Shown here piece by piece: positions 33,401 to 46,725 of a stretch of 64,000 bases of DNA. Made by a program: the position numbers and the translations under genes. A model generated the notes under the pieces. That model was not told the DNA's origin, did not search any database, and saw nothing but the letters and a program-made list of their open reading frames with translations. The stretch spans positions 1 through 64,000 of the forward strand of contig JBMFRC010000012.1 in assembly GCA_049968235.1 (NCBI GenBank), given 5' to 3'. The stretch is from Candidatus Hydrogenedens sp. GTDB lineage: Bacteria; Hydrogenedentota; Hydrogenedentia; Hydrogenedentales; Hydrogenedentaceae. Positions within the stretch are counted from its first letter, which is position 1. Every line of letters starts with the position of its first letter.

Positions 33401-34381
33401 TTAAATAAACATACCTATGACTTCAGCCATGCCTGCATTTACAGGAGGAGTTCCGGCACCAGTTGGGTTTAATGGGTCTTCCGCAACATAACGGATAAAT
33501 TCCACATGCCCATCCATATATAGAACATTGGAACCTCCGGGGATATGATTAAATCCTTCAGGTTTGGTAGAAACATGGTCAAGCATAATCCATACAGAAC
33601 TCTGCGCCTGTGCGGAAGATGCTGGATTATTAATATCTGTAATTAAGAATCTTTCAATACCTTCTCTTAGGCGATATACAGTACTACCACCACCATTACC
33701 ATTACCTGCCGTTACAGTTACATCCTTGTCAACAAGATTAGGCCATTGTGCAGGATTCGCAAAAACAGGAACGAGGGTATTTAGTGCAAGTTCAATAAAT
33801 TGACCGGGTCCGGTTACAGGCTGATTAATTAATGGAGGAACTGCAGGTAGTGTCATCGGATTGTCTGTAGTTTTAGCACGGTCTAAAACCCAGCCGATAT
33901 ATACATAACTTTCGTCTATTGCAGCAGCACCATAGTGTTCGTTAGTGCATAGCCAGCCTGCGGTGTTTTCTCCTGTTGCATCATTAGTAATATCTTTGAT
34001 TGTGCTTTGTGCATCGGATGGACAAAAAATTATTGCCGGATCAGTTAAATATTCCGGATACAAAGTCGTTAAATCGGGACCCATAGCAAGGAATACAGAC
34101 CTTTGAAAAGTGGTGTATGCTGGATTGGCAACATCACAATCTCTATAAATAGGTTGTGAGCCTTCCCTTACGAGAATTCTTGGGAATCTTTCACCTTTTG
34201 ATTCCCCACAATACATTTTGAACACTAATCCCCATTGCTTCAAGTTATTTTGACAACTTGACCTTCTTGCCGCTTCGCGAGCCCTTGCTAACGCAGGCAG
34301 TAAAATAGCAGCAAGAATTCCGATAATAGCAATGACGACTAACAATTCGATTAAAGTAAAACCTTTTTTACTTTTCTTCAT
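33401..34381 (-). CDS. Prepilin-type N-terminal cleavage/methylation domain protein of the DUF1559 / H-X9-DG-like family
   Basis: The N-terminus [45 protein letters not shown] is a class III signal (G|FTLIE). The C-terminus reads [17 protein letters not shown]. Confidence 0.8.
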
Positions 34382-34653
34382 ATAGGACCTCCTATCGTTA
34401 GTTTGTTAATTTTTTAATGAAACTATTTAAGATTAAAAATAGAATTATTATAAGAAGAAAAATATGAAAAGTCAAATTTAAATTTTCTTTTCTTTTATAG
34501 TTGTATTGTAGATATTATTATTTGTAAAAGTGAAAATAAGTATCTTTTTTGTTGAAGATTCTTATTTGTTGTATTTTAATAATATTATTATAAATTGATA
34601 AGAATAATGTGTTTTTTGATTATTTTTAATTTAATTAATAGGAAAATTTATTA

Positions 34654-35571
34654 ATGCAAAGAAGAGAACCTATATATTTAAATATTAATAAAGATAAAGA
34701 AGAAGAGTACCTTGAATGGGCAAGAAAATCTCTTCAAAATTGTTATGCATGTCCAAGACACTGTGGTGTTAATAGATATAAAAATCAATCGGGTCATTGT
34801 AAGATAGGTCAGTATGCACGAGTTTCAAGTGCTTTTCCTCACTTTGGGGAGGAATCGTGTTTAGTCGGTTGGCATGGTTCCGGTACAATTTTTTTTAGCG
34901 GATGTAATTTGAATTGTGTTTTTTGTCAAAATTATGAGATTAGCCAGTATCCATCAGGAGCGGAGTGTTCAGCAGAAATTATTGCAGAGATGATGTTAAA
35001 CTTACAGTCTTTAGGTTGCCATAATATCAATCTTGTTACTCCTTCTCATGTAATTCCTCAAATTATCGAAGTGCTGATTATTGCCAAACGAAGTGGATTA
35101 CAAATCCCTATTGTTTATAACACAAATGCTTATGATAATATTGAATCATTAAAAATCCTTGAAAACTGGATTGATATCTATATGCCTGATATAAAATATT
35201 GGGAAGAAGAAACAGCATGTAAATATTCGAATGCTAAAAATTATCCGGATATAGCAAAAGAGTCTATAAAAGAGATGCATCGTCAGGTAGGAGATTTAAT
35301 TATAAATTCTGATGGAATTGCTCAACGGGGATTATTGGTGAGGCATCTTGTGATGCCCGGATTAATTCATGAAACGAAAGAGATTCTGAAATGGATAGCA
35401 TCCGATATTTCTAAAAATACATATATTAATATCATGGGACAATACCGTCCCACATATAAAGTTCCTCATAATCCCTGTTATCTTAAAATTTCTCGAAGAC
35501 CAATGCGTGAGGAAATTGAAGAAGTTATTCATTTTTCCAAATTATGTGGATTAACGAGAATTGCAGAATAA
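34654..35571 (+). CDS. Radical SAM protein (PflX / activating-enzyme-like)
   Basis: The radical-SAM cluster motif is CNLNCVFCQN (CxxxCxxC). An additional N-terminal Cys cluster is present (CYACPRHC...HC). Confidence 0.72.
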   Translation: MQRREPIYLNINKDKEEEYLEWARKSLQNCYACPRHCGVNRYKNQSGHCKIGQYARVSSAFPHFGEESCLVGWHGSGTIFFSGCNLNCVFCQNYEISQYPSGAECSAEIIAEMMLNLQSLGCHNINLVTPSHVIPQIIEVLIIAKRSGLQIPIVYNTNAYDNIESLKILENWIDIYMPDIKYWEEETACKYSNAKNYPDIAKESIKEMHRQVGDLIINSDGIAQRGLLVRHLVMPGLIHETKEILKWIASDISKNTYINIMGQYRPTYKVPHNPCYLKISRRPMREEIEEVIHFSKLCGLTRIAE

Positions 35572-35620: not shown

Positions 35621-37843
35621 TTATCTTACATATTGTTTTCTGATATGTAATGCAGAACAGAAAGTCATTACACATACAATTAATACAATTGTTAATGTTG
35701 AACTAACAGGAACTTCATCTGAAATGATAACATGAAATTCATAAGTAGCATTGGTTTTCTGTCCATCATCATATTCACAAATGTATATTCCTGTATCCTC
35801 AATTTGTGCGTTGGGAATCCAGAGGGAACGGCAATGAGTATTTAATCCTCTTTCTTCTAAACTACCATTTAGTTTGGACCAATTAAATGAAGAATTCATA
35901 GATACAGGTTCCGGAACACGCAAGCATATATCAGACCCTGCTTTGAAAATTCCGCCCAATGTTGAAGAAGAATGGCATTCTTCACAATCCGAACCGGGAT
36001 ATACAACAGGATTTAATGCAGAATTAATATATGCCTGTTTTTTCTCTTCATAACTCATATGTGAACGGACAAAATATTCATATTCCTGTTTATTTGTCCA
36101 GCCATCCCCATCCGCATCACCATCAGGACCGAAAAATTGAGGTAGAAGTTGATAGAAGGTAGGAACAATGATATTTACATGTATATTGAAACTGGGGTCT
36201 ATAGCCTGTGCTGCTATAGAAATTACAGTCGGTATCATCGTGGATTCTTGATTACCTAAGGTCATGTATCCTGCTAACATTTGTGGCAAACCATAAAATA
36301 TGGTATTTACGATACTTCCTTCACCACCACAGTCTGTAATCATTCGTTGCATGTTTTGGTTGAAAGCATTCACAGCAATTTGATGACTTATACCGCCATT
36401 GGCAGTAAAATCAATAGATGTATTGTTATAACATTCCGTGATAAGTGAAAATTCTAACGAATCTAACATGCCATTTCCGGAAATAACAATAGGGTCTATA
36501 GATATTTGTCCACCATTCAAATCACATTCTTCAGGACTAAACGAAAGTCCTTCTGCTCCCTGGTCTCCTAATAAAACATAATATGCACTTAAATTTTCAT
36601 GTAAATATTGCATACCTGCTACAATTTCATGGTCAGGTTGCCTTATAAAATCATGATACTCCCAAACGCCGTTATAACAAAAATCTCCATTGCCTTCTGT
36701 ATTTCCCGTGCCGGGTCCTCCTAATGGTTTTGAAGTGCTATCTACAATAGTATCATCATCAATTACACAAAGTGTAACATTTCCTACTGCCCCTGCAGTA
36801 TCTACAACCACATTGTAAACTTGATTACCCTGAACATTATTGACAGATAAGATAGAAAGGGGAGAGGATAAACTATCCTTTGCATTAAAATCAGATGTAT
36901 CAACATTAGAAACAGGTTCACTAAAAGTTACAGAAAAAGTCATTGTATTTCCGTTAGAAGAAATACTATTAATTAAATAAACTTTTGGATAATCCAACCA
37001 TTGACTAATGAATTCCGACATGCATCTCTGGGCTAATATTTTATAACCTGCTTGAGATAAATGTATATCCCCATCAAACAGTCCATCAGGATGAACTAAT
37101 GAACATGGGTCTCCTCCGGGAAAAGGTGTATAGGTGGGATAATTACCTGGATAAGGGACAGAATGAGGGGGCAAATTTGTGGGAGTTGATGTCCCAAAAT
37201 GATATTGCATTAACCCAAGATTATGAACATAATAAACTCGTGGCTTGCTATCTGCCAGAGCCTTTTTGGCTTGTTCAAATCTTACAAAAGCATTTTGCTG
37301 GTCACATATTGAACAACCACCACGGTCTCTGCCTGCAAAAGTATATCCACAAAGAGCAACGCGAATATCGGGACGAACTGAAAGAATTTCATCAATAATA
37401 CCACTCATATAATTTACAATCGTATTAATAATGTATTCTTCCTGGGATGGATTAGAAAGCATATCACAATTCCAACGAGATGTTTGTGGAGTTCCTCGAA
37501 GGAAATCATTTCCTCCTAATGTTATCAATACAATATCAATTGTAGGATATTTTGCTAATTCTTCCTTTACATTTTGAATATAATTATATTCTTCAGGGTA
37601 AAATTCAAATGCTCGTGCTCCCATAATAGCAGTACGACTACCTATCTCTCTTAAATGTTCCATTCCAGGTGTTTCGTTAAAAATTTCTTTAAAGGTTCTA
37701 AATGCCCACATAAAACCAGTCCAACTATCACCGACTAATAGAACCCGTGGAATTTCCTCTTGAGAAAATGCAACAGAACTATCTATGAGAATAAGTAAAG
37801 ATAAGAAACAAATCAAGAATAAACTTAAAATACTATGTTTCAT
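35621..37843 (-). CDS. Secreted SGNH/GDSL-family hydrolase with Ig-like C-terminal domains and a C-terminal TM anchor
   Basis: It has a signal peptide. The SGNH blocks are block I LLVGDSWT, block II ITLGGNDF and block V DGDIHLS. An acidic Ca-type loop (DGDADGDGWTNKQE) and a C-terminal hydrophobic helix are present. Confidence 0.7.
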   Translation of the reverse strand: MKHSILSLFLICFLSLLILIDSSVAFSQEEIPRVLLVGDSWTGFMWAFRTFKEIFNETPGMEHLREIGSRTAIMGARAFEFYPEEYNYIQNVKEELAKYPTIDIVLITLGGNDFLRGTPQTSRWNCDMLSNPSQEEYIINTIVNYMSGIIDEILSVRPDIRVALCGYTFAGRDRGGCSICDQQNAFVRFEQAKKALADSKPRVYYVHNLGLMQYHFGTSTPTNLPPHSVPYPGNYPTYTPFPGGDPCSLVHPDGLFDGDIHLSQAGYKILAQRCMSEFISQWLDYPKVYLINSISSNGNTMTFSVTFSEPVSNVDTSDFNAKDSLSSPLSILSVNNVQGNQVYNVVVDTAGAVGNVTLCVIDDDTIVDSTSKPLGGPGTGNTEGNGDFCYNGVWEYHDFIRQPDHEIVAGMQYLHENLSAYYVLLGDQGAEGLSFSPEECDLNGGQISIDPIVISGNGMLDSLEFSLITECYNNTSIDFTANGGISHQIAVNAFNQNMQRMITDCGGEGSIVNTIFYGLPQMLAGYMTLGNQESTMIPTVISIAAQAIDPSFNIHVNIIVPTFYQLLPQFFGPDGDADGDGWTNKQEYEYFVRSHMSYEEKKQAYINSALNPVVYPGSDCEECHSSSTLGGIFKAGSDICLRVPEPVSMNSSFNWSKLNGSLEERGLNTHCRSLWIPNAQIEDTGIYICEYDDGQKTNATYEFHVIISDEVPVSSTLTIVLIVCVMTFCSALHIRKQYVR

Positions 37844-37993
37844 TTTTGTCTCCTTTTTATTTATGTTATGTAATAAAAAACAATAATTAAACTAAATAAA
37901 TTATAGCAATAAAAAAAGAAAAAAATCAATAAAATATACTTAAGAGATATTTTTTTAATAAAAGAAAAAATTTTAATGAAAAGTATTTTAAAT

Positions 37994-38022
37994 TTGACAA
38001 GGAGTAAACAGTGTGCTATAAT
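37994..38022 (+). promoter_or_regulatory. Consensus sigma70 promoter, TTGACA - 17 nt - (TGc)TATAAT, upstream of rex
   Basis: TTGACA lies at 37994-37999 and TATAAT at 38017-38022. The TG of the extended -10 is at 38014-38015. Confidence 0.65.
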
Positions 38023-38084
38023 TTGTTCATAAATTCACAATTATACTTACAGGTAAGTATATAAATTTGTTTGTAAATTCACAA
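38023..38084 (+). promoter_or_regulatory. Two direct-repeat Rex-box-like operators (TTGTTCATAAATTCACAA and TTGTTTGTAAATTCACAA) flanking a perfect 7-2-7 palindrome TACTTACAGGTAAGTA
   Basis: The boxes are at 38023-38040 and 38067-38084. Each has a perfect TTCACAA right half-site and a degenerate left half-site, compared with the Rex consensus TTGTGAAnnnnTTCACAA. Box 1 abuts the -10 element. Confidence 0.55.
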
Positions 38085-38101
38085 TTAAAAGTATAAAGTA
38101 T

Positions 38102-38797
38102 ATGGTATCTGAGAAAACAGTAGAAAGATTAAGTTTATACCGCCGAATACTTCAACAATTGAGGGTCGAGAGTAAAGAAACTATAATGTCCCATGAACTT
38201 GCGAATATGTTACACATAAAGCCAGCACAGGTACGCAGGGATATTATGCAATTAGGTTATTCAGGAATACCTAATAGTGGTTATAGAATTCGACCTCTTT
38301 TAGAGAGTATTGCAAATTTTTTAGATTCCCCGTTGCCTCAGAGTGCTGTTTTAGTAGGTGTTGGACATTTAGGACTTGCGTTATTGGCTAACTTTGCAGG
38401 ACGATGGAGGCAATTAGCTATTCGTGCCTCTTTTGATAAAGACCCTGCAAAAGTAGGACAGACTTTTCATGGTTGTCGTTGTTATGCTATGTGTGATTTG
38501 CAAAAAGTAATTGCGGAGACAAAAAGTGTAGTAGGCATCCTGGCAATACCGGGTGAAAGTGCCCAATCTGTTTGTGACCTTCTTGTTCAGTCAGGTATTA
38601 GTGGCGTATTAAATTTTTCCCCATTGCGAATTAAAGTGCCTGATAATGTCTTTATAGAACATGTTGACCTTTCCGCTACGTTTGAAAAAGTTTCGTTCTT
38701 TGCAAGAAGAATGAAACATTATGCAGAAGAAGAAAAACGGAAAGTAGAAAATGAAATTACTGAGGGTGAATACGAAACATTAACAACCAATCAATAA
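38102..38797 (+). CDS. rex: Redox-sensing transcriptional repressor Rex
   Basis: The N-terminal winged helix reads TVERLSLYRRIL. The Rossmann fold reads AVLVGVGHLGLALL, and a C-terminal swap helix is present. Confidence 0.85.
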   Translation: MVSEKTVERLSLYRRILQQLRVESKETIMSHELANMLHIKPAQVRRDIMQLGYSGIPNSGYRIRPLLESIANFLDSPLPQSAVLVGVGHLGLALLANFAGRWRQLAIRASFDKDPAKVGQTFHGCRCYAMCDLQKVIAETKSVVGILAIPGESAQSVCDLLVQSGISGVLNFSPLRIKVPDNVFIEHVDLSATFEKVSFFARRMKHYAEEEKRKVENEITEGEYETLTTNQ

Positions 38798-38823
38798 ATA
38801 AAAAATTTTGTAGGAGATAGAAT

Positions 38824-39348
38824 ATGAATGAAGAATCAAAGCATGCGTGTATGGAAGAAGCAAGTGAAGAAGAACTGCTTGCTCGGCTTGATGAAGTAAT
38901 TGCAGAATATAAGGACAAGCCCGGTGCTCTTATTCCTGTTCTGCAGATTGCTCAGGCTATGTTTGGTTATCTACCCGAAAGTGCATTAAAAAAGATTAGT
39001 TTGGGACTGAACAAACCGTATAGTGAAGTTGCAGGTGTGGTAACATTTTACTCATTCTTTTCAACCCAGCCTCGTGGAAAACATATGATTCGTGTCTGTT
39101 TAGGAACTGCTTGTTATGTCCGTGGTGGCAAACAGGTTCTTTCTGCAATTAAGGATAAACTCCATATTGATGTTGGAGAGACCACGAAAGACCGTATGTT
39201 CTCTTTAGAGGTGGCTCGTTGTTTTGGTGCTTGTGGGCTTGCTCCTGCCATTATGGTGGATAACGATGTGCATCAACGGGTAAAACCTGCCCGAATTCAG
39301 GCTATTTTAGACCAGTATTTAGACAAAAACACAGAAAAAAATAAATAA
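38824..39348 (+). CDS. hndA: NuoE-like [2Fe-2S] subunit of an NAD(P)-linked [FeFe]-hydrogenase (HndA / HydC-like)
   Basis: It has a thioredoxin-like fold with 2Fe-2S Cys ligands (CLGTACYVRG...CFGACGLAP). It is ~174 aa, and its RBS is AGGAGA. Confidence 0.82.
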   Translation: MNEESKHACMEEASEEELLARLDEVIAEYKDKPGALIPVLQIAQAMFGYLPESALKKISLGLNKPYSEVAGVVTFYSFFSTQPRGKHMIRVCLGTACYVRGGKQVLSAIKDKLHIDVGETTKDRMFSLEVARCFGACGLAPAIMVDNDVHQRVKPARIQAILDQYLDKNTEKNK

Positions 39349-39370
39349 GAAATAAATAAGGAGAAAAGCC

Positions 39371-39742
39371 ATGTCAAATATTATTCATTCTCCAGAAGAC
39401 CTTAATGCTTTACGAGAAAAGGCAATTAAGGACATTGAGATTCGTAATTCACATAAAGATTTGGTGATTACTGTTCACATGGGAACATGTGGTATTGCTG
39501 CGGGTGCCAGAGAAGTATTAAAAAATATCATCTCTGAAATTTCTGCTATAGGTATAACCAATGTTACAGTCCGTCAATCTGGATGTGCAGGTCTCTGCGA
39601 CCGTGAACCCATGATTACGGTTACTCATAAATCCTCCGGTTCTGAATATCGTTATGGAAAATTAAACACGGAAAAGATACGAGAAATTGTGAAACAGCAT
39701 ATTGCAGAAGGTAAACCTGTGATGGAATATTTAATTTCCTGA
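39371..39742 (+). CDS. hndB: Small thioredoxin-like [2Fe-2S] ferredoxin subunit (HndB-like)
   Basis: The 2Fe-2S ligand motifs are HMGTCGIAAGA and SGCAGLCDREPM. It is 123 aa, and its RBS is AAGGAGA. Confidence 0.72.
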   Translation: MSNIIHSPEDLNALREKAIKDIEIRNSHKDLVITVHMGTCGIAAGAREVLKNIISEISAIGITNVTVRQSGCAGLCDREPMITVTHKSSGSEYRYGKLNTEKIREIVKQHIAEGKPVMEYLIS

Positions 39743-39825
39743 TGAAGAAATACAGGGTAAATTCGGATTCCCATAAAGTGGTTGAGATGAACATGTATAG
39801 CAAAATAAGAAAGAATGATATAGAA

Positions 39826-41271
39826 ATGAAAATGAACATATTACATCTATTTCTTATTTTATTTTTATGTTCATCCGCAACCTTTACTGAAATATCTGAT
39901 TGGGAAACCATCTCACTTTCGGATACAGGAGAAGCATTACAAAATCCCGGCATGGGATGGGTATTACATTTTTACGATAATGTTCCTGAAAATTATGGTT
40001 CTAAATTAGCCCCTTCAGATACTGTTGATGAATTCCCTGCCCTTTCAGTTATTTATTTGCGAATAGCATGGTCGTTTTTAGAACCTGAAGAAGGAAAGTA
40101 TAACTGGTCTATATTGGATACTCCTTCTCAACGATGGATTTCTAAAGGGAAACAAATTGCTTTGCGCATTACCTGTAGTGAAACTCCTATTCCATGGGCG
40201 ACACCAAAATGGGTTTATGAAGCAGGAGCCAAAGGTAATTTCTTCATTCCTACCCAGGGGATAAAAGAAAATGGGACACATTGGGAACCCGAATTTGATG
40301 ACCCTGTTTTCTTGGATAAGTTGGATAATTTTTTAGCAGTGTTAGCAAAGAGATATGATGAAAATCCGGAAATAGCCTTCATAGATATGGGTTCATTAGG
40401 AGTGTGGGGAGAAGGTCATGTATGGCATTCCACACAAAAACATATTTCGACGGAAACCATAAAAAAACACATTGATTTGCACATAAAGCACTTTAAAAAC
40501 ACAATAATTGCTCTAAATGATGACCTTATCACAAATGGGCAAAAATTGGATGTAATTCCCGAAGAGAAAAAAGAACTCCTCAATTATGCTATCAAAAATG
40601 GGTTAACACTTCGCGATGATAGTATTCTTGTTCAGGGTGGAGATAATGTATATTTTAGTGCAAGCCTTGCGGAATACTTCTGGCGAAATAGACCTATCAT
40701 TTTAGAATCTGAACATTATGGACCATCAAAGGCTGAAAGGCATTGGGGGGACGGAAGTAAATATTTACAGGCTGTAGAAGATTACCATGCAAGTTATACT
40801 TCTATTCATTGGTGGCCAAGGGAGTTTTTACAAGAAAACAAAGATTTGATAGATAAAATCAATCTTCGTTTGGGGTATCGTATTGTCCCTACCGAAGTTA
40901 AATGGCAAAAGACAGTAAAAATATCCGAGAAAAAATGGGATATATCCTACCGTTGGGCAAATAAAGGAGTGGCACCTTGTTATCGGGATGTATATCCCAT
41001 TATTACATGGAAAGATGAGAAAGGAGGAATTGTTGCTGTTTTTACAGATGAGACATTTAATCTCAAACAATTACCAATAGGGAAGCAGGATGAATTAAAA
41101 GAAATTGAGGTAAAAAAATCTTTTTTTATTCCTTTTTTATTGAAAGAAGGAAATTATACAGTATTCATTTCAGCGGGTTCTATTACGGGCACGCCTGAAA
41201 TTCAATTACCGTTAAACAACACAGACCATGAAAAAAGATATGTTATAGGTAAAGTTAATGTTGTTTTGTGA
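39826..41271 (+). CDS. Secreted clan GH-A TIM-barrel glycoside-hydrolase-like protein (GH42/GH35-like N-terminal signature). The tracked ORF begins at 39742; the start at 39826 gives a clean signal peptide.
   Basis: The signal peptide is MKMNILHLFLILFLCSSATF. NPGMGW is present. IAWSFLEPEEGKYNW resembles the GH42 signature AWSxxEPxEGxY. MGSLGVWGEGHVWHS is also present. Confidence 0.55.
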   Translation: MKMNILHLFLILFLCSSATFTEISDWETISLSDTGEALQNPGMGWVLHFYDNVPENYGSKLAPSDTVDEFPALSVIYLRIAWSFLEPEEGKYNWSILDTPSQRWISKGKQIALRITCSETPIPWATPKWVYEAGAKGNFFIPTQGIKENGTHWEPEFDDPVFLDKLDNFLAVLAKRYDENPEIAFIDMGSLGVWGEGHVWHSTQKHISTETIKKHIDLHIKHFKNTIIALNDDLITNGQKLDVIPEEKKELLNYAIKNGLTLRDDSILVQGGDNVYFSASLAEYFWRNRPIILESEHYGPSKAERHWGDGSKYLQAVEDYHASYTSIHWWPREFLQENKDLIDKINLRLGYRIVPTEVKWQKTVKISEKKWDISYRWANKGVAPCYRDVYPIITWKDEKGGIVAVFTDETFNLKQLPIGKQDELKEIEVKKSFFIPFLLKEGNYTVFISAGSITGTPEIQLPLNNTDHEKRYVIGKVNVVL

Positions 41272-41342
41272 AAAAAAATATAAAGATATAAATAAAAACT
41301 TCAGAAATGAAGCATACACAAGTTATGGAAAGGAGAAAAAAA

Positions 41343-44300
41343 ATGAGTCCATTTCGAAGTCATGTATTAATCTGTGCAGGTGCAGGATGCGTGGCATCAG
41401 GTTCGATGGAAGTAAGTTCCGCCTTTTCGGAGGCACTTGCCAAACATGGGCTAAATGAAGAAATTCAAGTAGTCCATACAGGATGTTTAGGACCCTGTGC
41501 TATTGGTCCCGTGGTCGTGATTTATCCAGATGCTATTTTTTATCAAGGTGTTAAAACAACAGATGTTGAAGATATTGTTGTTGAGCATCTGTTAAAAGGT
41601 CGGCCTGTTAGTCGCTTGAATTTCAAATCTACTACCACATCACAAATTATTCCTGCACTGCAGGAGATTGGTTTTTTCAAGCAACAGACAAAGATAGTTT
41701 TAAGGAACTGTGGTATTATAGACCCTACAAAAATTGAGGAGTATATTGCGAGAGATGGGTATCAGGCTTTAGCAAAAGTACTGACAAAAATGACTCCACA
41801 GCAGGTAGTAGAAGAAGTGAAAAAATCTGGACTTCGGGGAAGAGGTGGTGCAGGATTCCCAACAGGTATAAAGTGGGAGTTAACTCAAAAAGCCCACGGA
41901 GATAAGAAATATGTTCTTTGTAATGCTGATGAAGGTGACCCGGGCGCATTTATGGACAGAAGTGTTTTGGAAGGTGACCCCCATAGTGTTATTGAAGCTA
42001 TGATTATAGCAGGATATGCCATTGGTTCTGACCAGGGATATATTTATGTTCGAGCAGAATATCCTTTAGCGGTAGAGAGATTAAATATAGCGATAAAGCA
42101 AGCCAGAGAATATGGTTTGTTAGGTAAGAATATTATGGGAACGAATTTTAATTTCGACCTTGAAATACGAATGGGTTCAGGTGCTTTTGTGTGTGGAGAA
42201 GAAACCGCATTGATGCGTTCTATCGAAGGGAAACGCGGAGAACCCAGACCCCGTCCACCGTTCCCTGCATATAAAGGTTTATGGGAAAAACCCAGTTTAT
42301 TAAATAATGTAGAAACCTATGCAAACATCCCTGTAATTATATTAAAAGGTGCTGATTGGTTTGCTTCCATAGGAACAGGTAAAAGTAAAGGAACAAAAGT
42401 GTTTGCCTTAGCAGGTGCTGTAAACAACACAGGATTGGTCGAAATTCCGATTGGTACACCATTAGGTGAAATTATTTATGATATTGGCGGTGGAATTCCG
42501 CGAGGCAAACAATTTAAGGCAGCGCAAATTGGAGGTCCTTCCGGCGGTTGTATTCCAAAACAACATCTGAATGTGCCGGTAGATTACGAGTCATTACAGG
42601 AATTAGGAGCGATTATGGGTTCCGGTGGATTAATTGTTATGGATGAAGACACATGTATGGTCGATATGGCTCGTTTCTTCCTTGACTTTGTTCAGGATGA
42701 GTCATGTGGAAAATGTGTCCCATGCCGGGTCGGAACGAAAAGAATGTTGGAAATTGTGACAAGGATTTGTGAGGGTCGGGGAGAAGAAGGCGATATTGAA
42801 AAACTTATTGAATTAGGACAACAGATTAAAGATGCATCGTTATGTGGATTAGGGCAGACAGCTCCAAACCCTGTTCTTTCTGCAATACGGCACTTCCGTG
42901 ATGAATTTGAAATTCATATTCGTGAACATAAATGTCCGGCGGGTGTCTGTCCATCTCTTGTTCGTGCTCCTTGTATGAGTGCTTGCCCGGCAAATGTTTA
43001 CATTCCGGGTTTTGTCTCATTAATATCTGAAAAACGATATGCGGAAGCACTTCGTGTGCATCGTGACCAGAACCCCTTTGCATCTGTATGTGCCCGTGTG
43101 TGTTTCCATACTTGTGAGGACAAATGTAGAAGAGCTACTCTGGATGAAGCGGTATCCATACGCGGATTGAAGCGATTTATGGTAGAGCAAGAAGTTACAA
43201 TACAACTACCTGAAATTCGTGAAAATGAACAAAATCTTCGCAAAAAGGTGGCTATTATAGGAGCAGGTCCTGCAGGTCTAACCTGTGCTTATTTCCTTGC
43301 ACGATTAGGCTATCAACCCCGTGTTTTTGAATCTGCACCCAGGCCCGGCGGTATGTTAGTTCAAACAATTCCCGCTTATCGGTTACCCCGAGAAGAATTG
43401 GCTCGAGAAATTCGTATGATAGAAAGAATGGGCGTTGTCATAGAAACTGAAAAAGCCTTAGGTCGTGATTTTACATTACAAAGCCTTCGTGATGATGGAT
43501 ATGAGGCTATTTTTCTCGGAATAGGTGCTCCATCAGGTCAAAAATTGAGAATTCCAGGCGAAGATGCGGATGGCGTTGTCGAAGCCATAGACTTCCTTCG
43601 TGAATACAATCTCCGTGGTTCTGTTCCTGTAGGGAAAAATGTTGTTATTATAGGAGGTGGTAATGCAGCTATTGATGCGGCAAGAACTGCCATTCGTTTA
43701 GGAGCAAAAAAAGCAACGATTCTTTACCGCAGAACAAGAGAAGAGATGCCTGCGTATAAAGAAGAGATCGAAGAAGCAGTTAATGAAGGTGTTATTTTAA
43801 AAATGTTAGTAACTCCACTGGAGATTTTGACAGAAAACGGAAAAGTTGTTGGTGTAAAATGTCAACACATGTGGTTAGGAGAATATGACCGTTCCGGTAG
43901 AAGAAGACCTGAAGCCAAAAAGGGTGAAGAACCCTTTGTTGAAGAAGCAGACCAGGTTATTGCAGCAATAGGGCAAACTGTTGATTTAAAACGTTACCTG
44001 GATGGATTAAATGTTAAGTTAACACCTTCTGGTTTCTTGTGGGTAGACCAATTATATGGTCAGACCTCTATTGAATGGTTATTTGCAGGTGGTGATATTA
44101 GTTCAGGTCCTTCTTCCGTAGCAGAAGCAATCGGTGCTGGTGAAAGAGCTGCAGTTGGAATTGATAAGTATCTTACTGGAGAAGAACATGCTTTCTGGCG
44201 CGAACCCTATATGGTAGATACAGAATTTGACCCAGATTCCGACCCGGTAGATTTCCCAAGAGCAAAAATGAAACTTTTACCTGTTGAAAAGAGGGTACAC

Positions 44301-44414
44301 AACTTTAATGAAGTTGAAATCCCGTTTACGGAAACATTAGCGGTAAGAGAGGCACGCCGTTGCTTACGTTGTGATTATCGTGAAACAAAAATAAGTTTAA
44401 ATACACAACAATAA
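41343..44414 (+). CDS. hndC: NuoF-like flavoprotein subunit (HndC-like) fused to a C-terminal GltD/NfnB-like NAD(P)H oxidoreductase. The tracked ORF starts at 41307; the RBS-supported start is 41343.
   Basis: The N-terminal thioredoxin-like 2Fe-2S domain reads LICAGAGCVASG...CLGPCAIGP. The NuoF core carries GRGGAGFPTGIKW and ESCGKCVPCRVGT. A 2x[4Fe-4S] region follows, then the GltD-like part: CARVCFHTCEDKCRR, FAD GxGxxG (AIIGAGPAGLTCAYFLA) and NAD(P) GxGxxA (VVIIGGGNAAIDAAR). AAGGAG lies 7 nt before the 41343 ATG. Confidence 0.85.
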   Translation: MSPFRSHVLICAGAGCVASGSMEVSSAFSEALAKHGLNEEIQVVHTGCLGPCAIGPVVVIYPDAIFYQGVKTTDVEDIVVEHLLKGRPVSRLNFKSTTTSQIIPALQEIGFFKQQTKIVLRNCGIIDPTKIEEYIARDGYQALAKVLTKMTPQQVVEEVKKSGLRGRGGAGFPTGIKWELTQKAHGDKKYVLCNADEGDPGAFMDRSVLEGDPHSVIEAMIIAGYAIGSDQGYIYVRAEYPLAVERLNIAIKQAREYGLLGKNIMGTNFNFDLEIRMGSGAFVCGEETALMRSIEGKRGEPRPRPPFPAYKGLWEKPSLLNNVETYANIPVIILKGADWFASIGTGKSKGTKVFALAGAVNNTGLVEIPIGTPLGEIIYDIGGGIPRGKQFKAAQIGGPSGGCIPKQHLNVPVDYESLQELGAIMGSGGLIVMDEDTCMVDMARFFLDFVQDESCGKCVPCRVGTKRMLEIVTRICEGRGEEGDIEKLIELGQQIKDASLCGLGQTAPNPVLSAIRHFRDEFEIHIREHKCPAGVCPSLVRAPCMSACPANVYIPGFVSLISEKRYAEALRVHRDQNPFASVCARVCFHTCEDKCRRATLDEAVSIRGLKRFMVEQEVTIQLPEIRENEQNLRKKVAIIGAGPAGLTCAYFLARLGYQPRVFESAPRPGGMLVQTIPAYRLPREELAREIRMIERMGVVIETEKALGRDFTLQSLRDDGYEAIFLGIGAPSGQKLRIPGEDADGVVEAIDFLREYNLRGSVPVGKNVVIIGGGNAAIDAARTAIRLGAKKATILYRRTREEMPAYKEEIEEAVNEGVILKMLVTPLEILTENGKVVGVKCQHMWLGEYDRSGRRRPEAKKGEEPFVEEADQVIAAIGQTVDLKRYLDGLNVKLTPSGFLWVDQLYGQTSIEWLFAGGDISSGPSSVAEAIGAGERAAVGIDKYLTGEEHAFWREPYMVDTEFDPDSDPVDFPRAKMKLLPVEKRVHNFNEVEIPFTETLAVREARRCLRCDYRETKISLNTQQ

Positions 44415-44431
44415 TAAAAGGAGAATAAGCC

Positions 44432-46204
44432 ATGCCAAAATTAACTATAGATGGAATTCCCGTAGAAGTTCCGGAAGGAACAACAATACTTCAAGCGGCA
44501 AAGCAAATAGGATTAAAAATACCGACACTTTGTTATCTTGAAGAAGTTCAAGCCATCGGTGCCTGTCGTGTTTGCGTTGTTGAAGTTGAAGGAGCACGAA
44601 CTTTGGTCGCTTCTTGTGTTGCTCCTGTTGCGGAAGGAATGAAAGTCCATACAAATTCAAAAAGAGCCCGTGAGGCACGAAAAACAGTTGTAGAATTGTT
44701 ACTATCCGACCATGATGGCGATTGCCAGATTTGTGTTCGAAATGAAGATTGTGAACTTCAGGAATTGGCACGAACACTTGGGATAAAGGAAATTCGCTAT
44801 CAAGGTGAGAAGAGAAAACGGATTGTGGATGAAAGCACTCCCGCTGTTGTTCGTGATACATCGAAATGTGTCTTATGTAGAAGATGTATAACGGTTTGCA
44901 ATGAGGTTCAGGGTGTTGGCGGACTGTTCCCACAAAATCGTGGCTTTGAAACGGTAATAGGTCCCGCATTTTGTAGTGATTTGGATGATGTCGTATGTGT
45001 TCAGTGTGGTCAATGTAGTGCGGTTTGTCCTGTGGGTGCTATTGTAGAAAGAGACCAGATTGCGGATGTCTTTTCTGCATTAGATGACCCGACAAAAACA
45101 GTCGTTGTCCAGACAGCCCCTGCAATTCGTGCCGCATTGGGAGAATGTTTTGGTTTACCACCCGGAACTTTAGTAACAGGGAAGATGGTTACCGCACTTC
45201 GTAGACTGGGTTTCCATGCCGTTTTTGATACTAACTTTGCCGCTGACCTTTGTATTATGGAAGAAGGTACAGAACTGCTAACTCGATTGAAGAAAAAACT
45301 GGTAGATGGGGAGAATATTGCTCTTCCTATGTTTACCAGTTGTTCTCCGGGGTGGATTAAGTTTTTAGAACATTTCTACCCGGATATGATTCCAAATGTA
45401 TCTACATGCAAATCCCCACAGCAAATGTTTGGTGCTATAGCAAAGACCTATTATTCCAAGAAAATTGGTAAGAAACCCGAAGATATTGTTGTTGTTTCTA
45501 TTATGCCCTGTACAGCGAAGAAATATGAACATCAGCGTCCCGAGATGAACAGTTCCGGTGTTCGTGATGTGGACTATGTGCTTACAACGCGTGAATTGGG
45601 TCGGATGATAAAACAGGCAGGCATTGATTTTGTAAATCTACCCGATGACAAGCAAGACTCACCATTAGGACTATCCTCTGGTGCTGCGGATATTTTTGCG
45701 AATACCGGGGGTGTTATGGAAGCGGCAATTCGAACTGTTTATGAAATAGTAACAGGACGCGAATTACCATTCGATGGACTTCATGTTGCTCCTATCGAAG
45801 GATTAGAAGGAATCAAGGAAGCCTCCTTGAAGATAGAAAAATGTGTGCCTGAATGGTCTTTCTTAGAAGGGGCTACCGTAAATGTTGCTGTGGCTCATGG
45901 ATTGGGTAATGCCAGAGCATTAATAGAGCGAGTTCGCTCAGGTGAAAAGGCGTATCACTTTATAGAAATTATGACCTGTCCCGGTGGATGTATTGGTGGA
46001 GGAGGACAACCTCGCTTTACAGATAATTCAGTTCGTCTTGCTCGTATTCAGGCCATATACAAAGAGGATGAAGGGAAACAACTTCGTAAGTCCCATGTAA
46101 ATCCTGACATACAAAAATTGTATAAGGAATTTTTAGGACATCCGAATAGTGAAGTTTCACATCATCTATTACATACGCATTACAATCCGAGAACAAAAGT
46201 ATAA
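44432..46204 (+). CDS. hndD: [FeFe]-hydrogenase catalytic subunit, M3 architecture (HndD/HydA-like), with non-canonical L1 motif TSCSPGW
   Basis: It has an N-terminal 2Fe-2S domain, a His-ligated 4Fe-4S (HDGDCQICVRNEDC) and two ferredoxin-like 4Fe-4S clusters. The H-cluster motifs are L2 MPCTAKKYE and L3 EIMTCPGGCIGG. The L1 motif reads FTSCSPGW. Confidence 0.88.
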   Translation: MPKLTIDGIPVEVPEGTTILQAAKQIGLKIPTLCYLEEVQAIGACRVCVVEVEGARTLVASCVAPVAEGMKVHTNSKRAREARKTVVELLLSDHDGDCQICVRNEDCELQELARTLGIKEIRYQGEKRKRIVDESTPAVVRDTSKCVLCRRCITVCNEVQGVGGLFPQNRGFETVIGPAFCSDLDDVVCVQCGQCSAVCPVGAIVERDQIADVFSALDDPTKTVVVQTAPAIRAALGECFGLPPGTLVTGKMVTALRRLGFHAVFDTNFAADLCIMEEGTELLTRLKKKLVDGENIALPMFTSCSPGWIKFLEHFYPDMIPNVSTCKSPQQMFGAIAKTYYSKKIGKKPEDIVVVSIMPCTAKKYEHQRPEMNSSGVRDVDYVLTTRELGRMIKQAGIDFVNLPDDKQDSPLGLSSGAADIFANTGGVMEAAIRTVYEIVTGRELPFDGLHVAPIEGLEGIKEASLKIEKCVPEWSFLEGATVNVAVAHGLGNARALIERVRSGEKAYHFIEIMTCPGGCIGGGGQPRFTDNSVRLARIQAIYKEDEGKQLRKSHVNPDIQKLYKEFLGHPNSEVSHHLLHTHYNPRTKV

Positions 46205-46223: not shown

Positions 46224-46247
46224 GGGGAGTGTGAGTGAGCACTCCCC
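46224..46247 (+). terminator. Stable hairpin after hndD: 8-bp GC-rich stem GGGGAGTG / CACTCCCC with an 8-nt loop and no U-tract
   Basis: It lies 20 nt downstream of the hndD stop. It may be a partial terminator or an RNA-stability element. Confidence 0.4.
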
Positions 46248-46329
46248 ATACAATCCTATGAAGTTGTATAATAGGAATATAGGTAGGAGTAAGTAGGTTT
46301 ATGAGTGTCTAATATTTAGGAAAGAAAAA

Positions 46330-46725
46330 ATGGAAAATAAAATTATAATGGTCGTTGATGATGATATTGATGTTCAGGATTTCTGTAAAATTGTATTAGG
46401 AAGAGAGGATTATCAGGTTATAACATTTTCCAACTCAGAGAGTGCACTCGAATATTTATCGTCGAACACTCCCTCTGTAATTATTACCGATTTAATGATG
46501 GGTGGAATTGATGAGGGTGTCCAATTTGTTAATAAGATTAGAGGATTCGATAATGAGAAGGCAAAAATTCCAATTATAATGATTACAGGCATAAATTCAA
46601 AATTAGGATATGACATCACTCCCCGTTCCGATGAAGAAAAAAAACAAATGAAAATCGATGAATTTATATCAAAACCTTTAAATCCAAAACAGTTAATAAC
46701 AGCACTAAAAAAAGTAATCAAATAG
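46330..46725 (+). CDS. Stand-alone response-regulator receiver (REC) domain protein
   Basis: The acidic pocket reads VVDDD. The phospho-acceptor Asp lies in VIITDLMM, and a conserved Lys is present. It is 131 aa with no output domain. Confidence 0.8.
   Translation: MENKIIMVVDDDIDVQDFCKIVLGREDYQVITFSNSESALEYLSSNTPSVIITDLMMGGIDEGVQFVNKIRGFDNEKAKIPIIMITGINSKLGYDITPRSDEEKKQMKIDEFISKPLNPKQLITALKKVIK

What the first reader, a model, noticed from the sequence alone, without database searches (positions are those of the whole stretch)
37994..38101. Sigma70 consensus promoter overlapped by tandem Rex-box-like direct repeats and a 7-2-7 palindrome upstream of rex
A near-textbook promoter lies directly upstream of rex. 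It has TTGACA at 37994, a 17-nt spacer and an extended -10 TGcTATAAT at 38014-38022. Two 18-bp elements sit at 38023-38040 (TTGTTCATAAATTCACAA) and 38067-38084 (TTGTTTGTAAATTCACAA). Each has a perfect TTCACAA Rex half-site and a degenerate left half. They are embedded in a 24-nt direct repeat (AATTTGTTyrTAAATTCACAATTA). Between them lies the perfect palindrome TACTTAC-AG-GTAAGTA. This layout suggests Rex autoregulation, with NADH/NAD+ control of the whole hnd operon from one promoter. The palindrome may be a site for a second regulator.
Basis: seen in the sequence. Interest (0 to 1): 0.52.

Follow-up and report, generated by a model that had tools for sequence, protein, structure and literature searches.

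The report
Rex-controlled promoter of a hydrogenase operon
This is the promoter of a hydrogen-producing enzyme operon in an uncultured Hydrogenedens bacterium. It carries two probable binding sites for the operon's own NADH-sensing repressor Rex, which is an ordinary design, plus a small conserved palindrome whose binding partner is unknown.

Summary
Within this one A+T-rich sequence, only the consensus promoter and the 24-nt direct repeat exceed chance. The Rex-box matches and the palindrome do not. The real evidence is comparative.

I compared 28 distinct loci from Hydrogenedentota genomes and metagenomes in which rex is the first gene of the operon.
- Box 1, just after the -10 element, is conserved in all of them, down to 49% Rex identity.
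- Box 2 is conserved, 40-45 bp (mostly 44) after box 1, in all 13 Hydrogenedens-like loci.
- The palindrome TAYYKA-N4-TARGTA is present in all 28.
- The surrounding leader sequence has diverged.

The gene at 38102-38797 encodes a genuine Rex protein. Downstream lies the "sub-type I BfuABCD" electron-bifurcating [FeFe]-hydrogenase operon.

The best reading is NADH-responsive Rex repression, including autorepression, of rex through bfuA from one promoter. This is a known design in a phylum where it had not been described.

The palindrome behaves like a DNA dyad operator rather than an RNA stem. It is absent from five rex-less clusters and four outgroup loci. Its binding factor is unidentified.

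The parts
37994..37999 (+). -35 hexamer TTGACA
   Evidence: It is invariant across the 10 Hydrogenedens-like loci. Distant relatives have TTGCAT at the same position.
38014..38022 (+). Extended -10 element TGcTATAAT, 17 nt after the -35. The transcription start is predicted (inferred only) at about 38029-38031.
   Evidence: 12/12 match with TG. Mean identity is 0.86. Distant relatives have TGnTATAGT.
38023..38040 (+). Rex box 1, TTGTTCATAAATTCACAA. It abuts the -10 element and covers the predicted transcription start.
   Evidence: It has 2 mismatches to TTGTGAANNNNTTCACAA and 1 mismatch to the hybrid consensus. T-Y-G-T-T and TTCAC-R-A are invariant in 26 distinct loci. It scores 26.4 bits.
38042..38061 (.). 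Dyad element TATACTTAC-AG-GTAAGTATA, with core TACTTACAGGTAAGTA at 38044-38059. Probably an operator for an unidentified factor.
   Evidence: It is unique in the window. It is present upstream of rex in every Hydrogenedentota rex-first locus and nowhere else in 48 loci. Mean identity is 0.93. As an RNA hairpin it is weak and its pairing register is inconsistent between loci.
38067..38084 (+). Rex box 2, TTGTTTGTAAATTCACAA, 44 bp after box 1 and 18-35 nt before the rex ATG.
   Evidence: It scores 21.2 bits with a matrix built from box 1 sequences only. It is conserved, 40-45 bp (mostly 44) after box 1, in the 12 Hydrogenedens-like loci scanned and is visible in L045.
38020..38043 (+). First copy of the 24-nt direct repeat AATTTGTTCATAAATTCACAATTA
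   Evidence: A repeat of at least 22/24 arose in 1 of 3000 shuffles.
38064..38087 (+). Second copy of the 24-nt direct repeat AATTTGTTTGTAAATTCACAATTA
38102..38797 (+). rex, the redox-sensing repressor (231 aa) and first gene of the operon. No Shine-Dalgarno sequence precedes it.
   Evidence: Pfam PF06971 plus PF02629. Matches to solved Rex structures run from E = 3e-33 down to E = 4e-26. Homologues were found in 12 genome loci and 24 metagenome loci.
38824..46204 (+). Structural genes of the hydrogenase: bfuC/nuoE-like 38824-39348, bfuD/hndB-like 39371-39742, a DUF4832/GH42-like ORF 39742-41271, bfuB (NuoF plus DPD_II plus FAD/NAD(P) domains) 41307-44414, and bfuA, the [FeFe]-hydrogenase, 44432-46204.
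   Evidence: Pfam results. Gene order is conserved in all loci. The cluster matches sub-type I BfuABCD of PMC11406978. Gaps between genes are 26 nt or less up to the DUF4832 ORF, and bfuD and the DUF4832 ORF overlap by one base.
46224..46247 (+). GC-rich hairpin just after the bfuA stop codon. It is the likely 3' end of the rex-bfu transcript and is followed by a TATAAT at 46266-46271.
   Evidence: The hairpin and GTATAAT are conserved in L037 and L041.

Best explanation
The window comes from a Candidatus Hydrogenedens genome. Positions 37994-38101 hold the sigma-70-type promoter and short leader of an operon. That operon encodes Rex followed by a sub-type I electron-bifurcating [FeFe]-hydrogenase (rex-bfuC-bfuD-DUF4832-bfuB-bfuA).

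Two 18-bp Rex operators lie on the same DNA face, 44 bp apart. Box 1 abuts the -10 element and covers the predicted transcription start. Box 2 lies between the start and the rex ATG.

Proposed mechanism (inferred). When the NADH/NAD+ ratio is low, Rex dimers occupy the boxes. The dimer at box 1 occludes RNA polymerase and the dimer at box 2 blocks elongation. When NADH rises, Rex leaves the DNA. The cell then makes the NADH-consuming, H2-evolving hydrogenase together with more Rex, which closes a negative feedback loop.

The 16-20 bp dyad between the boxes (TAYYKA-N4-TARGTA) is most likely the operator of a second dimeric DNA-binding protein, still unidentified, that adds another input.

Shown here: the sequence elements, their conservation, the identity of Rex and the operon structure. 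Inferred: the transcription start, Rex occupancy, the NADH response, and the existence and nature of the factor binding the dyad.
For: Promoter: it is the only perfect one in the window.

Rex protein: identity established by Pfam and by matches to solved structures.

Box 1: conserved in 26 distinct loci down to 49% Rex identity, always 0-10 nt after the -10 element.

Box 2: scores 15-26 bits with a matrix built from box 1 only, against a background maximum of 14.3 bits in those 26 loci (212 kb, both strands). The box 1 to box 2 distance is 44 bp in 9 of 12 loci, 45 bp in two and 40 bp in one.

Footprint: identity is 0.81-1.0 in the elements and 0.39 in the intervening sequence.

Independent Rex-type boxes: a rex-less cluster (L042) still has a 17-bit Rex box abutting its TGcTATAGT. 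Outgroup rex-first loci have two Rex-type boxes upstream of rex.

Literature: the Rex consensus TTGTGAANNNNTTCACAA, Rex autoregulation and repression of [FeFe]-hydrogenase genes are shown by EMSA in Caldicellulosiruptor (PMC6391272). Rex sites are predicted at hnd and at the Ruminococcus albus bifurcating hydrogenase (PMC10084766).

Dyad: present in all Hydrogenedentota rex-first loci (27 by the IUPAC pattern, plus L026 whose variant TAACTA falls just outside it), with symmetric T-A to C-G changes in both arms, and nowhere else in 48 loci or in the window.
Against: - In this single window, Rex-consensus matches are no more frequent than chance.
- Both boxes have an imperfect left half. The asymmetry (T at position 5, against C at position 14) is conserved, which is odd for a symmetric dimer.
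- No other strong box lies in the 64-kb window. I could not test for a wider Rex regulon in this genome.
- No transcription start or binding data exist.
- For the dyad, no candidate DNA-binding gene is nearby. A palindrome of this size arises in 7.5% of shuffles. Its distance from box 1 changes from 20 bp to 41-49 bp between clades. An RNA-level role cannot be excluded.
Confidence: 0.7

Rival explanations
1. The palindrome acts as an RNA hairpin in the rex 5' untranslated region, affecting mRNA stability, processing or translation, rather than as a DNA operator.
For: - It always lies on the transcribed side of the promoter, at about +15 to +60.
- RNAalifold predicts the 6-bp stem in both clades.
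- One stem pair switches between U-A and C-G, with two U-G intermediates.
- It occurs only where rex is the first gene.
Against: - The stem is weak, at -2.6 to -6.3 kcal/mol. The pairing register differs in L008, L026, L030 and L032.
- It is not part of the minimum-energy fold of the window's leader, which is no more structured than shuffles (z = +0.56).
- Only one pair covaries, probably from a single event. There are uncompensated C-A, G-A and A-G cells in four or more lineages.
- The stem is never extended by flanking complementarity.
- C7/G10 complementarity is kept in 12 of the 26 loci in the A4 alignment, which makes no sense for a 2-nt loop.
- There is no Rfam match.
Confidence: 0.2
2. 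The TTGTT...TTCACAA boxes are bound by a different regulator with a similar motif, for example a CRP/FNR-family protein (TGTGA-N6-TCACA type), and not by Rex.
For: The CRP/FNR-type consensus overlaps the Rex consensus (established knowledge). Within the window, Rex-type matches are not enriched. The conserved half-site asymmetry is unusual for Rex.
Against: - The boxes sit in front of rex itself in 28 loci.
- TT before CAC (positions 12-13) is invariant, as in TTCACAA.
- The Rex recognition helix is conserved.
- Outgroup rex genes also carry Rex-type boxes.
- No CRP/FNR gene is evident in the window.
Confidence: 0.07
3. Box 2 and the direct repeat are a neutral leftover of a 44-bp tandem duplication of the '-10 plus box 1' segment, so only box 1 is functional.
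For: The repeat extends beyond the 18-bp box into AATT...TTA flanks. The sequence before box 2 (TATAAA) resembles the -10 element. Distant relatives have no canonical box 2.
Against: Box 2 keeps 15-26 bits and a 40-45 bp (mostly 44) spacing across loci whose Rex is only 69% identical, while the adjacent leader has fallen to 0.39 identity. Seven distant loci keep a related TTGTT-N10-AAC block at the same position.
Confidence: 0.1
4. The palindrome's TATACT acts as a -10-like element causing sigma-70-dependent promoter-proximal pausing, or as an antisense promoter together with the reverse complement of box 2.
For: TATACT matches TATAAT at 5 of 6 positions on both strands. The scan lists a 9/12 minus-strand match, TTGTGA-17-TATACT, at 38084-38056.
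Against: Distant relatives have TATACC, which lacks the essential final T, and the element lies 45-60 nt downstream of the start. The antisense -35 (box 2) is absent there.
Confidence: 0.04

Closest known systems
Rex operators (ROP sites) with Rex autoregulation and Rex control of [FeFe]-hydrogenase genes. Examples: Caldicellulosiruptor bescii/saccharolyticus, Thermoanaerobacterium, Streptomyces rex-hemACD, and the predicted sites at Solidesulfovibrio hnd.
   Same: - An 18-bp inverted-repeat motif of the TTGTGAANNNNTTCACAA / TTGTTA-N6-TAAC type overlapping a promoter.
- The repressor's own gene is under its control.
- The target is an NADH-linked hydrogenase, so NADH excess derepresses an NADH-oxidising enzyme (PMC6391272, PMC5886521, PMC10084766).
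   Different: - The host is a candidate phylum (Hydrogenedentota) in which no Rex regulation has been described. PMC11406978 does not mention Rex.
- rex is the first cistron of the hydrogenase operon.
- The operators are a conserved asymmetric hybrid, with a TTGTT left half and a TTCAC right half.
- Two boxes 44 bp apart flank an extra conserved dyad.
Sub-type I BfuABCD group A3 [FeFe]-hydrogenase clusters of Hydrogenedentota (PMC11406978)
   Same: The gene order is C-D-B-A. BfuB carries DPD_II and a C-terminal FAD/NAD(P) domain. L008 comes from the very genome used as the example in that paper.
   Different: That paper describes neither the upstream rex gene, nor the promoter, nor the DUF4832/GH42-like gene inserted between bfuD and bfuB in the Hydrogenedens-like clade.
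CsoR/RcnR-family operators: TAC-X9-GTA dyads around G/C tracts, for example ATATACCCCTNAGGGGTATAT
   Same: The outer ATAC...GTAT / TAC...GTA dyad and the overall length of about 20 bp (PMC3902906).
   Different: The spacing here is TAC-X10-GTA and there is no G/C tract. No DUF156-family gene was seen in the window. This is a resemblance only.

Membership tests
Rex operator (ROP) site | 18-bp inverted repeat matching TTGTGAANNNNTTCACAA or a taxon variant such as TTGTTAA...TTAACAA | tested here: met
   Box 1 has 2 mismatches and box 2 has 3 mismatches to the canonical consensus. Against the hybrid TTGTKAANNNNTTMACAA they have 1 and 2. The right half TTCACAA is perfect in both.
Rex operator (ROP) site | Conserved in the promoter regions of orthologous genes across related genomes | tested here: met
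   Box 1 is present in all 28 rex-first Hydrogenedentota loci (26 scored by matrix, L045 and L047 read directly). Box 2 is present in the 12 Hydrogenedens-like loci scanned plus L045. The flanks have diverged.
Rex operator (ROP) site | A cognate Rex protein (winged helix plus NAD(H)-binding Rossmann domain) is encoded in the genome | tested here: met
   Pfam PF06971 plus PF02629. E = 3e-33 to 2vt2. AQVRRD, GVGHLG and FD motifs are aligned.
Rex operator (ROP) site | Bound by Rex in vitro or in vivo and released by NADH | not testable with these tools
   Requires EMSA, DAP-seq or ChIP.
Rex operator (ROP) site | The motif recurs at other redox or fermentation genes of the same genome (a regulon) | tested here: inconclusive
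   Only 64 kb were available. The best other hit is 13.1 bits at 34403, in an intergenic region. The whole genome could not be scanned.
Sigma-70-type promoter | -35 and -10 hexamers with 16-18 nt spacing, on the correct strand and upstream of the gene | tested here: met
   12/12 match with TG and a 17-nt spacer, 80 nt before the rex ATG. Conserved in relatives.
Sigma-70-type promoter | A mapped transcription start site | not testable with these tools
   No transcript data are available.
Structured cis-regulatory RNA (hairpin or riboswitch) | A thermodynamically stable fold supported by compensatory changes, or a match to a curated family | tested here: not met
   No Rfam match at E of 1 or below; the only two listed hits (E 2.8 and 6.6) score far under their gathering thresholds and neither overlaps the palindrome. 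The leader's z-score is +0.56. The stem is -2.6 to -6.3 kcal/mol with shifting registers. One covarying pair out of 8, and shuffles reach the observed scores.
Intrinsic terminator or attenuator | A GC-rich stem followed directly by a U-run | tested here: not met
   The stem is A+U-rich. It is not listed by the terminator scan. Distant relatives have no U-run after it.
CsoR/RcnR-type operator | A TAC-X9-GTA dyad enclosing one or two G/C tracts | tested here: not met
   The spacing is X10 and there are no G/C tracts (compared with PMC3902906).
Sub-type I BfuABCD [FeFe]-hydrogenase operon | bfuC-bfuD-bfuB-bfuA order, with BfuB carrying DPD_II and an extra FAD/NAD(P) domain | tested here: met
   Pfam domain content, synteny and the description in PMC11406978.

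The most novel reading that the evidence does not exclude
The dyad TAYYKA-N4-TARGTA is the operator of a regulator that has not yet been described. This regulator would be specific to Hydrogenedentota and would add a second signal to Rex control of the bifurcating hydrogenase. One possibility is H2 partial pressure relayed from the HydS-type sensory hydrogenase-histidine kinases and receiver-only proteins encoded next to some of these operons. The result would be a two-input switch (NADH and H2) at a single promoter.
Probability: 0.3. Interest if true: 0.5.

Novelty: new member of a known kind. Interest (0 to 1): 0.33.

Why it matters
Hydrogenedentota are uncultured, and their unusual bifurcating hydrogenases were catalogued only recently, without any regulatory information. 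This locus gives a concrete and testable regulatory model: NADH-responsive Rex repression with built-in autoregulation.

It also provides three practical things:
- a phylum-specific Rex motif, TYGTT-N6-TTCACRA, that could be used to map the Rex regulon in these metagenome-assembled genomes;
- a short conserved dyad that can serve as bait to find a second regulator of H2 metabolism;
- a natural consensus promoter with operators, which could be useful as a redox-responsive expression part.

The Rex part itself is an expected design rather than a surprise.

Tried and rejected
- Rfam scan of 37800-38300: nothing relevant.
- RNA structure for the leader or the palindrome: weak, with an inconsistent register and a single covarying pair.
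- Other copies of the palindrome: none in the 64-kb window or in 48 loci outside the rex leader.
- A pair of palindrome half-sites upstream of the receiver gene (46283-46300) looked promising. It is not conserved in L037, L039 or L041, so it is chance.
- Alternative pairing of the palindrome's left arm with two AAGTATA copies at the rex start codon: these are not conserved in relatives, so rejected.
- Search for a nearby DNA-binding gene that could bind the dyad: none in the window. The neighbours of distant loci are sensory hydrogenase-kinases and REC-kinase hybrids without DNA-binding domains.
- Literature and motif-memory leads for the dyad (CsoR/RcnR, CopY TACAnnTGTA, B. subtilis GntR, TetR/AcrR-type half-sites, LexA variants, LacI-type central CG): none fits. 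Only CsoR/RcnR was checked against a paper, and it fails on spacing and on the G-tracts.
- Sigma-dependent pause or antisense-promoter reading of TATACT: rejected because distant relatives have TATACC.
- Covariation between the Rex recognition helix and the box type (TTCAC against TTAAC) in the outgroup: the helix is the same, so this was uninformative.

Full report

Reading 37700-38500 confirms every coordinate.
- TTGACA lies at 37994-37999, followed by a 17-nt spacer and TGcTATAAT at 38014-38022.
- TTGTTCATAAATTCACAA lies at 38023-38040 and TTGTTTGTAAATTCACAA at 38067-38084.
- The 24-nt direct repeat is at 38020-38043 and 38064-38087, 22/24 identical.
- The palindrome is TACTTAC-AG-GTAAGTA at 38044-38059. 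It extends to 9-2-9 at 38042-38061.

The promoter is the only perfect TTGACA-N16-18-TATAAT in 64 kb, against 0.13 expected. It is also the only 12/12 hit in 35-48 kb.

I shuffled the 258-nt, 83% A+T intergenic region. The direct repeat was matched in 1 of 3000 shuffles. A palindrome with arms of at least 9 nt appeared in 225 of 3000.

Rex-consensus matches in the window are at chance level: 6 against 8.2 expected with up to 3 mismatches, and 4 against 3.7 expected for a hybrid consensus.

So in this single sequence only the promoter and the repeat are clearly non-random. The case for the boxes and the palindrome has to come from comparison with other genomes.

**2. Context**

The ORF at 38102-38797 is a Rex protein.
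- It has Pfam Put_DNA-bind_N plus CoA_binding.
- It matches B. subtilis Rex 2vt2 at E = 3e-33 and seven other solved Rex proteins. The AQVRRD recognition helix, GVGHLG and FD motifs all align.

The downstream genes are:
- a NuoE-like gene (38824-39348);
- an HndB-like gene (39371-39742);
- a secreted DUF4832/GH42-like ORF (39742-41271);
- a 1035-aa NuoF plus DPD_II plus FAD/NAD(P) fusion (41307-44414);
- an [FeFe]-hydrogenase (44432-46204);
- then a receiver-only response regulator, hydG, an aspartase-like gene, hydF and a radical-SAM gene.

The rex-bfuC gap is 26 nt and carries an AGGAG ribosome-binding site.

Relatives identify the organism as Candidatus Hydrogenedens, phylum Hydrogenedentota.

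The cluster is the 'sub-type I BfuABCD' group A3 hydrogenase described in PMC11406978. That paper does not mention Rex, promoters or regulators of this cluster.

**3. Comparative evidence**

Sources of loci:
- Genome and metagenome scans with Rex gave 36 loci.
- Look-ups via BfuC and the receiver protein gave 12 more.
- After removing duplicates there are 28 distinct Hydrogenedentota loci with rex as the first gene.

Gene order rex-bfuC-bfuD-(DUF4832)-bfuB-bfuA is conserved throughout. The DUF4832 gene is present only in the Hydrogenedens-like clade, which I call group A (Rex 69-94% identical).

Group A: promoter, box 1, palindrome and box 2 are all present. Mean identity to the window is 1.0 for -35, 0.39 for the spacer, 0.86 for -10, 0.89 for box 1, 0.93 for the palindrome, 0.81 for box 2, 0.39 for box 2 to the ATG, and 0.87 for the first 60 nt of rex.

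Group B (Rex 49-55% identical): the 100-200-nt leader cannot be aligned except at four places:
- TTGCAT-N17-TGnTATAGT;
- box 1, AATCGTTwT..A.TTCACRA, 7-10 nt after the -10 element;
- the palindrome TACCTAACGGTAGGTA, 41-49 bp after box 1;
- in seven loci, a TTGTT-N10-AAC block that looks like an expanded box 2.

A weight matrix built from the 26 box 1 sequences gives these results over the 26 loci (212 kb, both strands):
- box 1 scores 19-26 bits;
- box 2, which was not used to build the matrix, scores 15-26 bits in 11 of the 12 group A loci scanned (12.2 bits in L004);
- the background never exceeds 14.3 bits in this scan; a later scan of ten further loci gave one coding-region hit of 14.5 bits in L043.

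The box 1 to box 2 distance is 44 bp in 9 of 12 loci, 45 bp in two and 40 bp in one. That is about four helical turns.

The consensus is T-Y-G-T-T-N6-T-T-C-A-C-R-A, with those positions invariant or two-state.

**4. What the boxes are**

The right half is the canonical Rex half-site. The left half is the TTGTT type reported for Thermoanaerobacterium (TTGTTA-N6-TAAC; PMC5886521).

The same hybrid operator appears in reverse orientation upstream of rex in outgroup loci L033-L036 (for example TTGTTACAAAAATCACGA, 16.2 bits), next to a symmetric GTTATTAAATTAAC box.

A rex-less sub-type I cluster (L042) has TCGTGATAGATTTCACGA (17 bits) abutting its TGcTATAGT.

[quoted passage not shown] Rex sites have been predicted at hnd of Solidesulfovibrio and at the R. 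albus bifurcating hydrogenase, alongside a proposed HydS H2-sensing input (PMC10084766).

Taken together, the Rex-operator reading is well supported in silico. Binding and the NADH response are inferred.

**5. Likely mechanism**

A start at the usual ~7 nt after the -10 element would fall at about 38029-38031, inside box 1 (inference).
- Rex at box 1 would occlude RNA polymerase.
- Rex at box 2 (about +38 to +55) would act as a roadblock or cooperate with box 1 on the same DNA face.
- High NADH releases Rex. This induces the NADH-oxidising, H2-evolving enzyme together with rex itself, giving negative feedback.

rex has no Shine-Dalgarno sequence in group A, whereas bfuC has AGGAG. That would keep Rex levels low relative to the enzyme (inference).

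A conserved GC hairpin (46224-46247) and a GTATAAT follow bfuA. The promoter therefore probably controls rex through bfuA, and the maturase genes have their own promoter.

**6. The palindrome**

The pattern TAYYKAMNNKTARRTA occurs once in the window. It is found only in the rex leader among 48 loci.

It is absent from five rex-less sub-type I clusters (L042, L043, L044, L046, L048) and from four outgroup rex-first loci.

Its sequence, not only its symmetry, is conserved. T1, A2, A6, T11, A12, G14, T15 and A16 are invariant in 26 loci. Position 4/13 is T-A in group A and C-G in group B, with U-G in two loci and C-A in one.

As RNA it is unconvincing:
- the stem energy is -2.6 to -6.3 kcal/mol, and the register differs in L008, L026, L030 and L032;
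- it is absent from the minimum-energy fold of the window's leader, which has z = +0.56;
- one pair of eight covaries, and shuffles reach the observed scores;
- the left-arm variants TACCGA, TATCTA and TAACTA are not compensated, while the right arm GTARGTA never changes;
- the stem is never extended by flanking complementarity, and there is no Rfam match.

C7-G10 complementarity is frequent. It matters for a DNA dyad but is impossible in a hairpin with a 2-nt loop.

I therefore favour a dimeric DNA-binding protein using it as an operator or roadblock (about 0.45 of the probability), with an RNA hairpin as the main rival (about 0.2).

The factor is unidentified. No candidate gene lies in the window. 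Neighbours in some distant loci are sensory hydrogenase-histidine kinases and REC-kinase hybrids without DNA-binding outputs.

CsoR/RcnR operators share the TAC...GTA frame, but they need X9 spacing and G/C tracts, which are not present here (PMC3902906).

**7. Novelty and verdict**

Rex autoregulation and Rex control of bifurcating hydrogenases are established designs. Finding them in Hydrogenedentota, with rex as the leading cistron and a conserved asymmetric operator pair, adds a new member of a known kind.

The conserved, phylum-specific dyad is the one unexplained element, and it is experimentally tractable.

Interest is modest at 0.33.

Noticed in passing
window 39742-41271: A 509-aa secreted DUF4832/GH42-like protein is encoded inside the cytoplasmic hydrogenase operon, between bfuD and bfuB. 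Its start overlaps the bfuD stop by one base. It is conserved at this position in all Hydrogenedens-like loci at 65-82% identity, which is lower than the flanking genes. It is absent from distant Hydrogenedentota. There is no obvious functional link to a hydrogenase.
   Followed up: partly
window 37900-37929 (minus strand): A conserved divergent promoter candidate, TTGATT-18-TGnTATAAT (10/12 match), for the 740-aa GDSL-like lipase gene (35621-37843). The surrounding AAATCAATAAAATATA block is about 0.8-0.9 identical across the Hydrogenedens-like loci.
   Followed up: partly
window 38085-38101, compared with 38798-38823: rex has no Shine-Dalgarno sequence in any Hydrogenedens-like locus, while bfuC, 26 nt downstream of rex, has AGGAG. 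Distant relatives have TCAGGA about 10 nt before the rex ATG. This may keep repressor translation low.
   Followed up: no
window 46224-46271: A GC-rich 8-bp hairpin lies directly after bfuA, without a T-run on the plus strand, followed by GTATAAT. Both are conserved in L037 and L041. It is probably a transcript end or processing site plus an internal promoter for the receiver-hydG-aspA-hydF-hydE genes.
   Followed up: partly
L010, L012, L021, L022, L023, L030, L032: 10-45 nt after the palindrome: A third conserved block..ATAAC-TTTT-GTT-N10-AAC.., lies in the long leaders of distant Hydrogenedentota. It aligns with box 2 of the window but its half-sites are 2 bp further apart (TGT-N12-ACA instead of TGT-N10-ACA). 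A similar TAACAnTGTTA element occurs in outgroup loci L033-L036.
   Followed up: partly
L025 413-1558, L026 3-908, L030 611-2695 (minus strand); window 46330-46725: Some rex-bfu loci have a sensory [FeFe]-hydrogenase fused to a histidine kinase and a REC-HisKA-HATPase hybrid directly upstream of rex. The window encodes a receiver-only response regulator after bfuA. No DNA-binding output domain is evident for this presumptive H2-sensing relay.
   Followed up: partly
L046 about 640-690: A rex-less sub-type I cluster has a sigma-54-like promoter, TGGCATGGCGCTTGCT, followed 13 nt later by a Rex-type box, TTGTGAAAATTTTAACAG.
   Followed up: no
window 34403-34420: A weak Rex-like box, TTGTTAATTTTTTAATGA (13.1 bits), lies in the intergenic region between a DUF1559/prepilin-type gene (33401-34381, minus strand) and a radical-SAM gene (34654-35571). 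It is at background level and conservation was not checked.
   Followed up: no
L012 3905-3922: Between box 1 and the palindrome, L012 carries TTTACTTAAGGAATGAGC. This looks like a decayed second copy of the group A form of the palindrome (TACTTAAAGGTAAGTA), at the position the palindrome occupies in group A.
   Followed up: no
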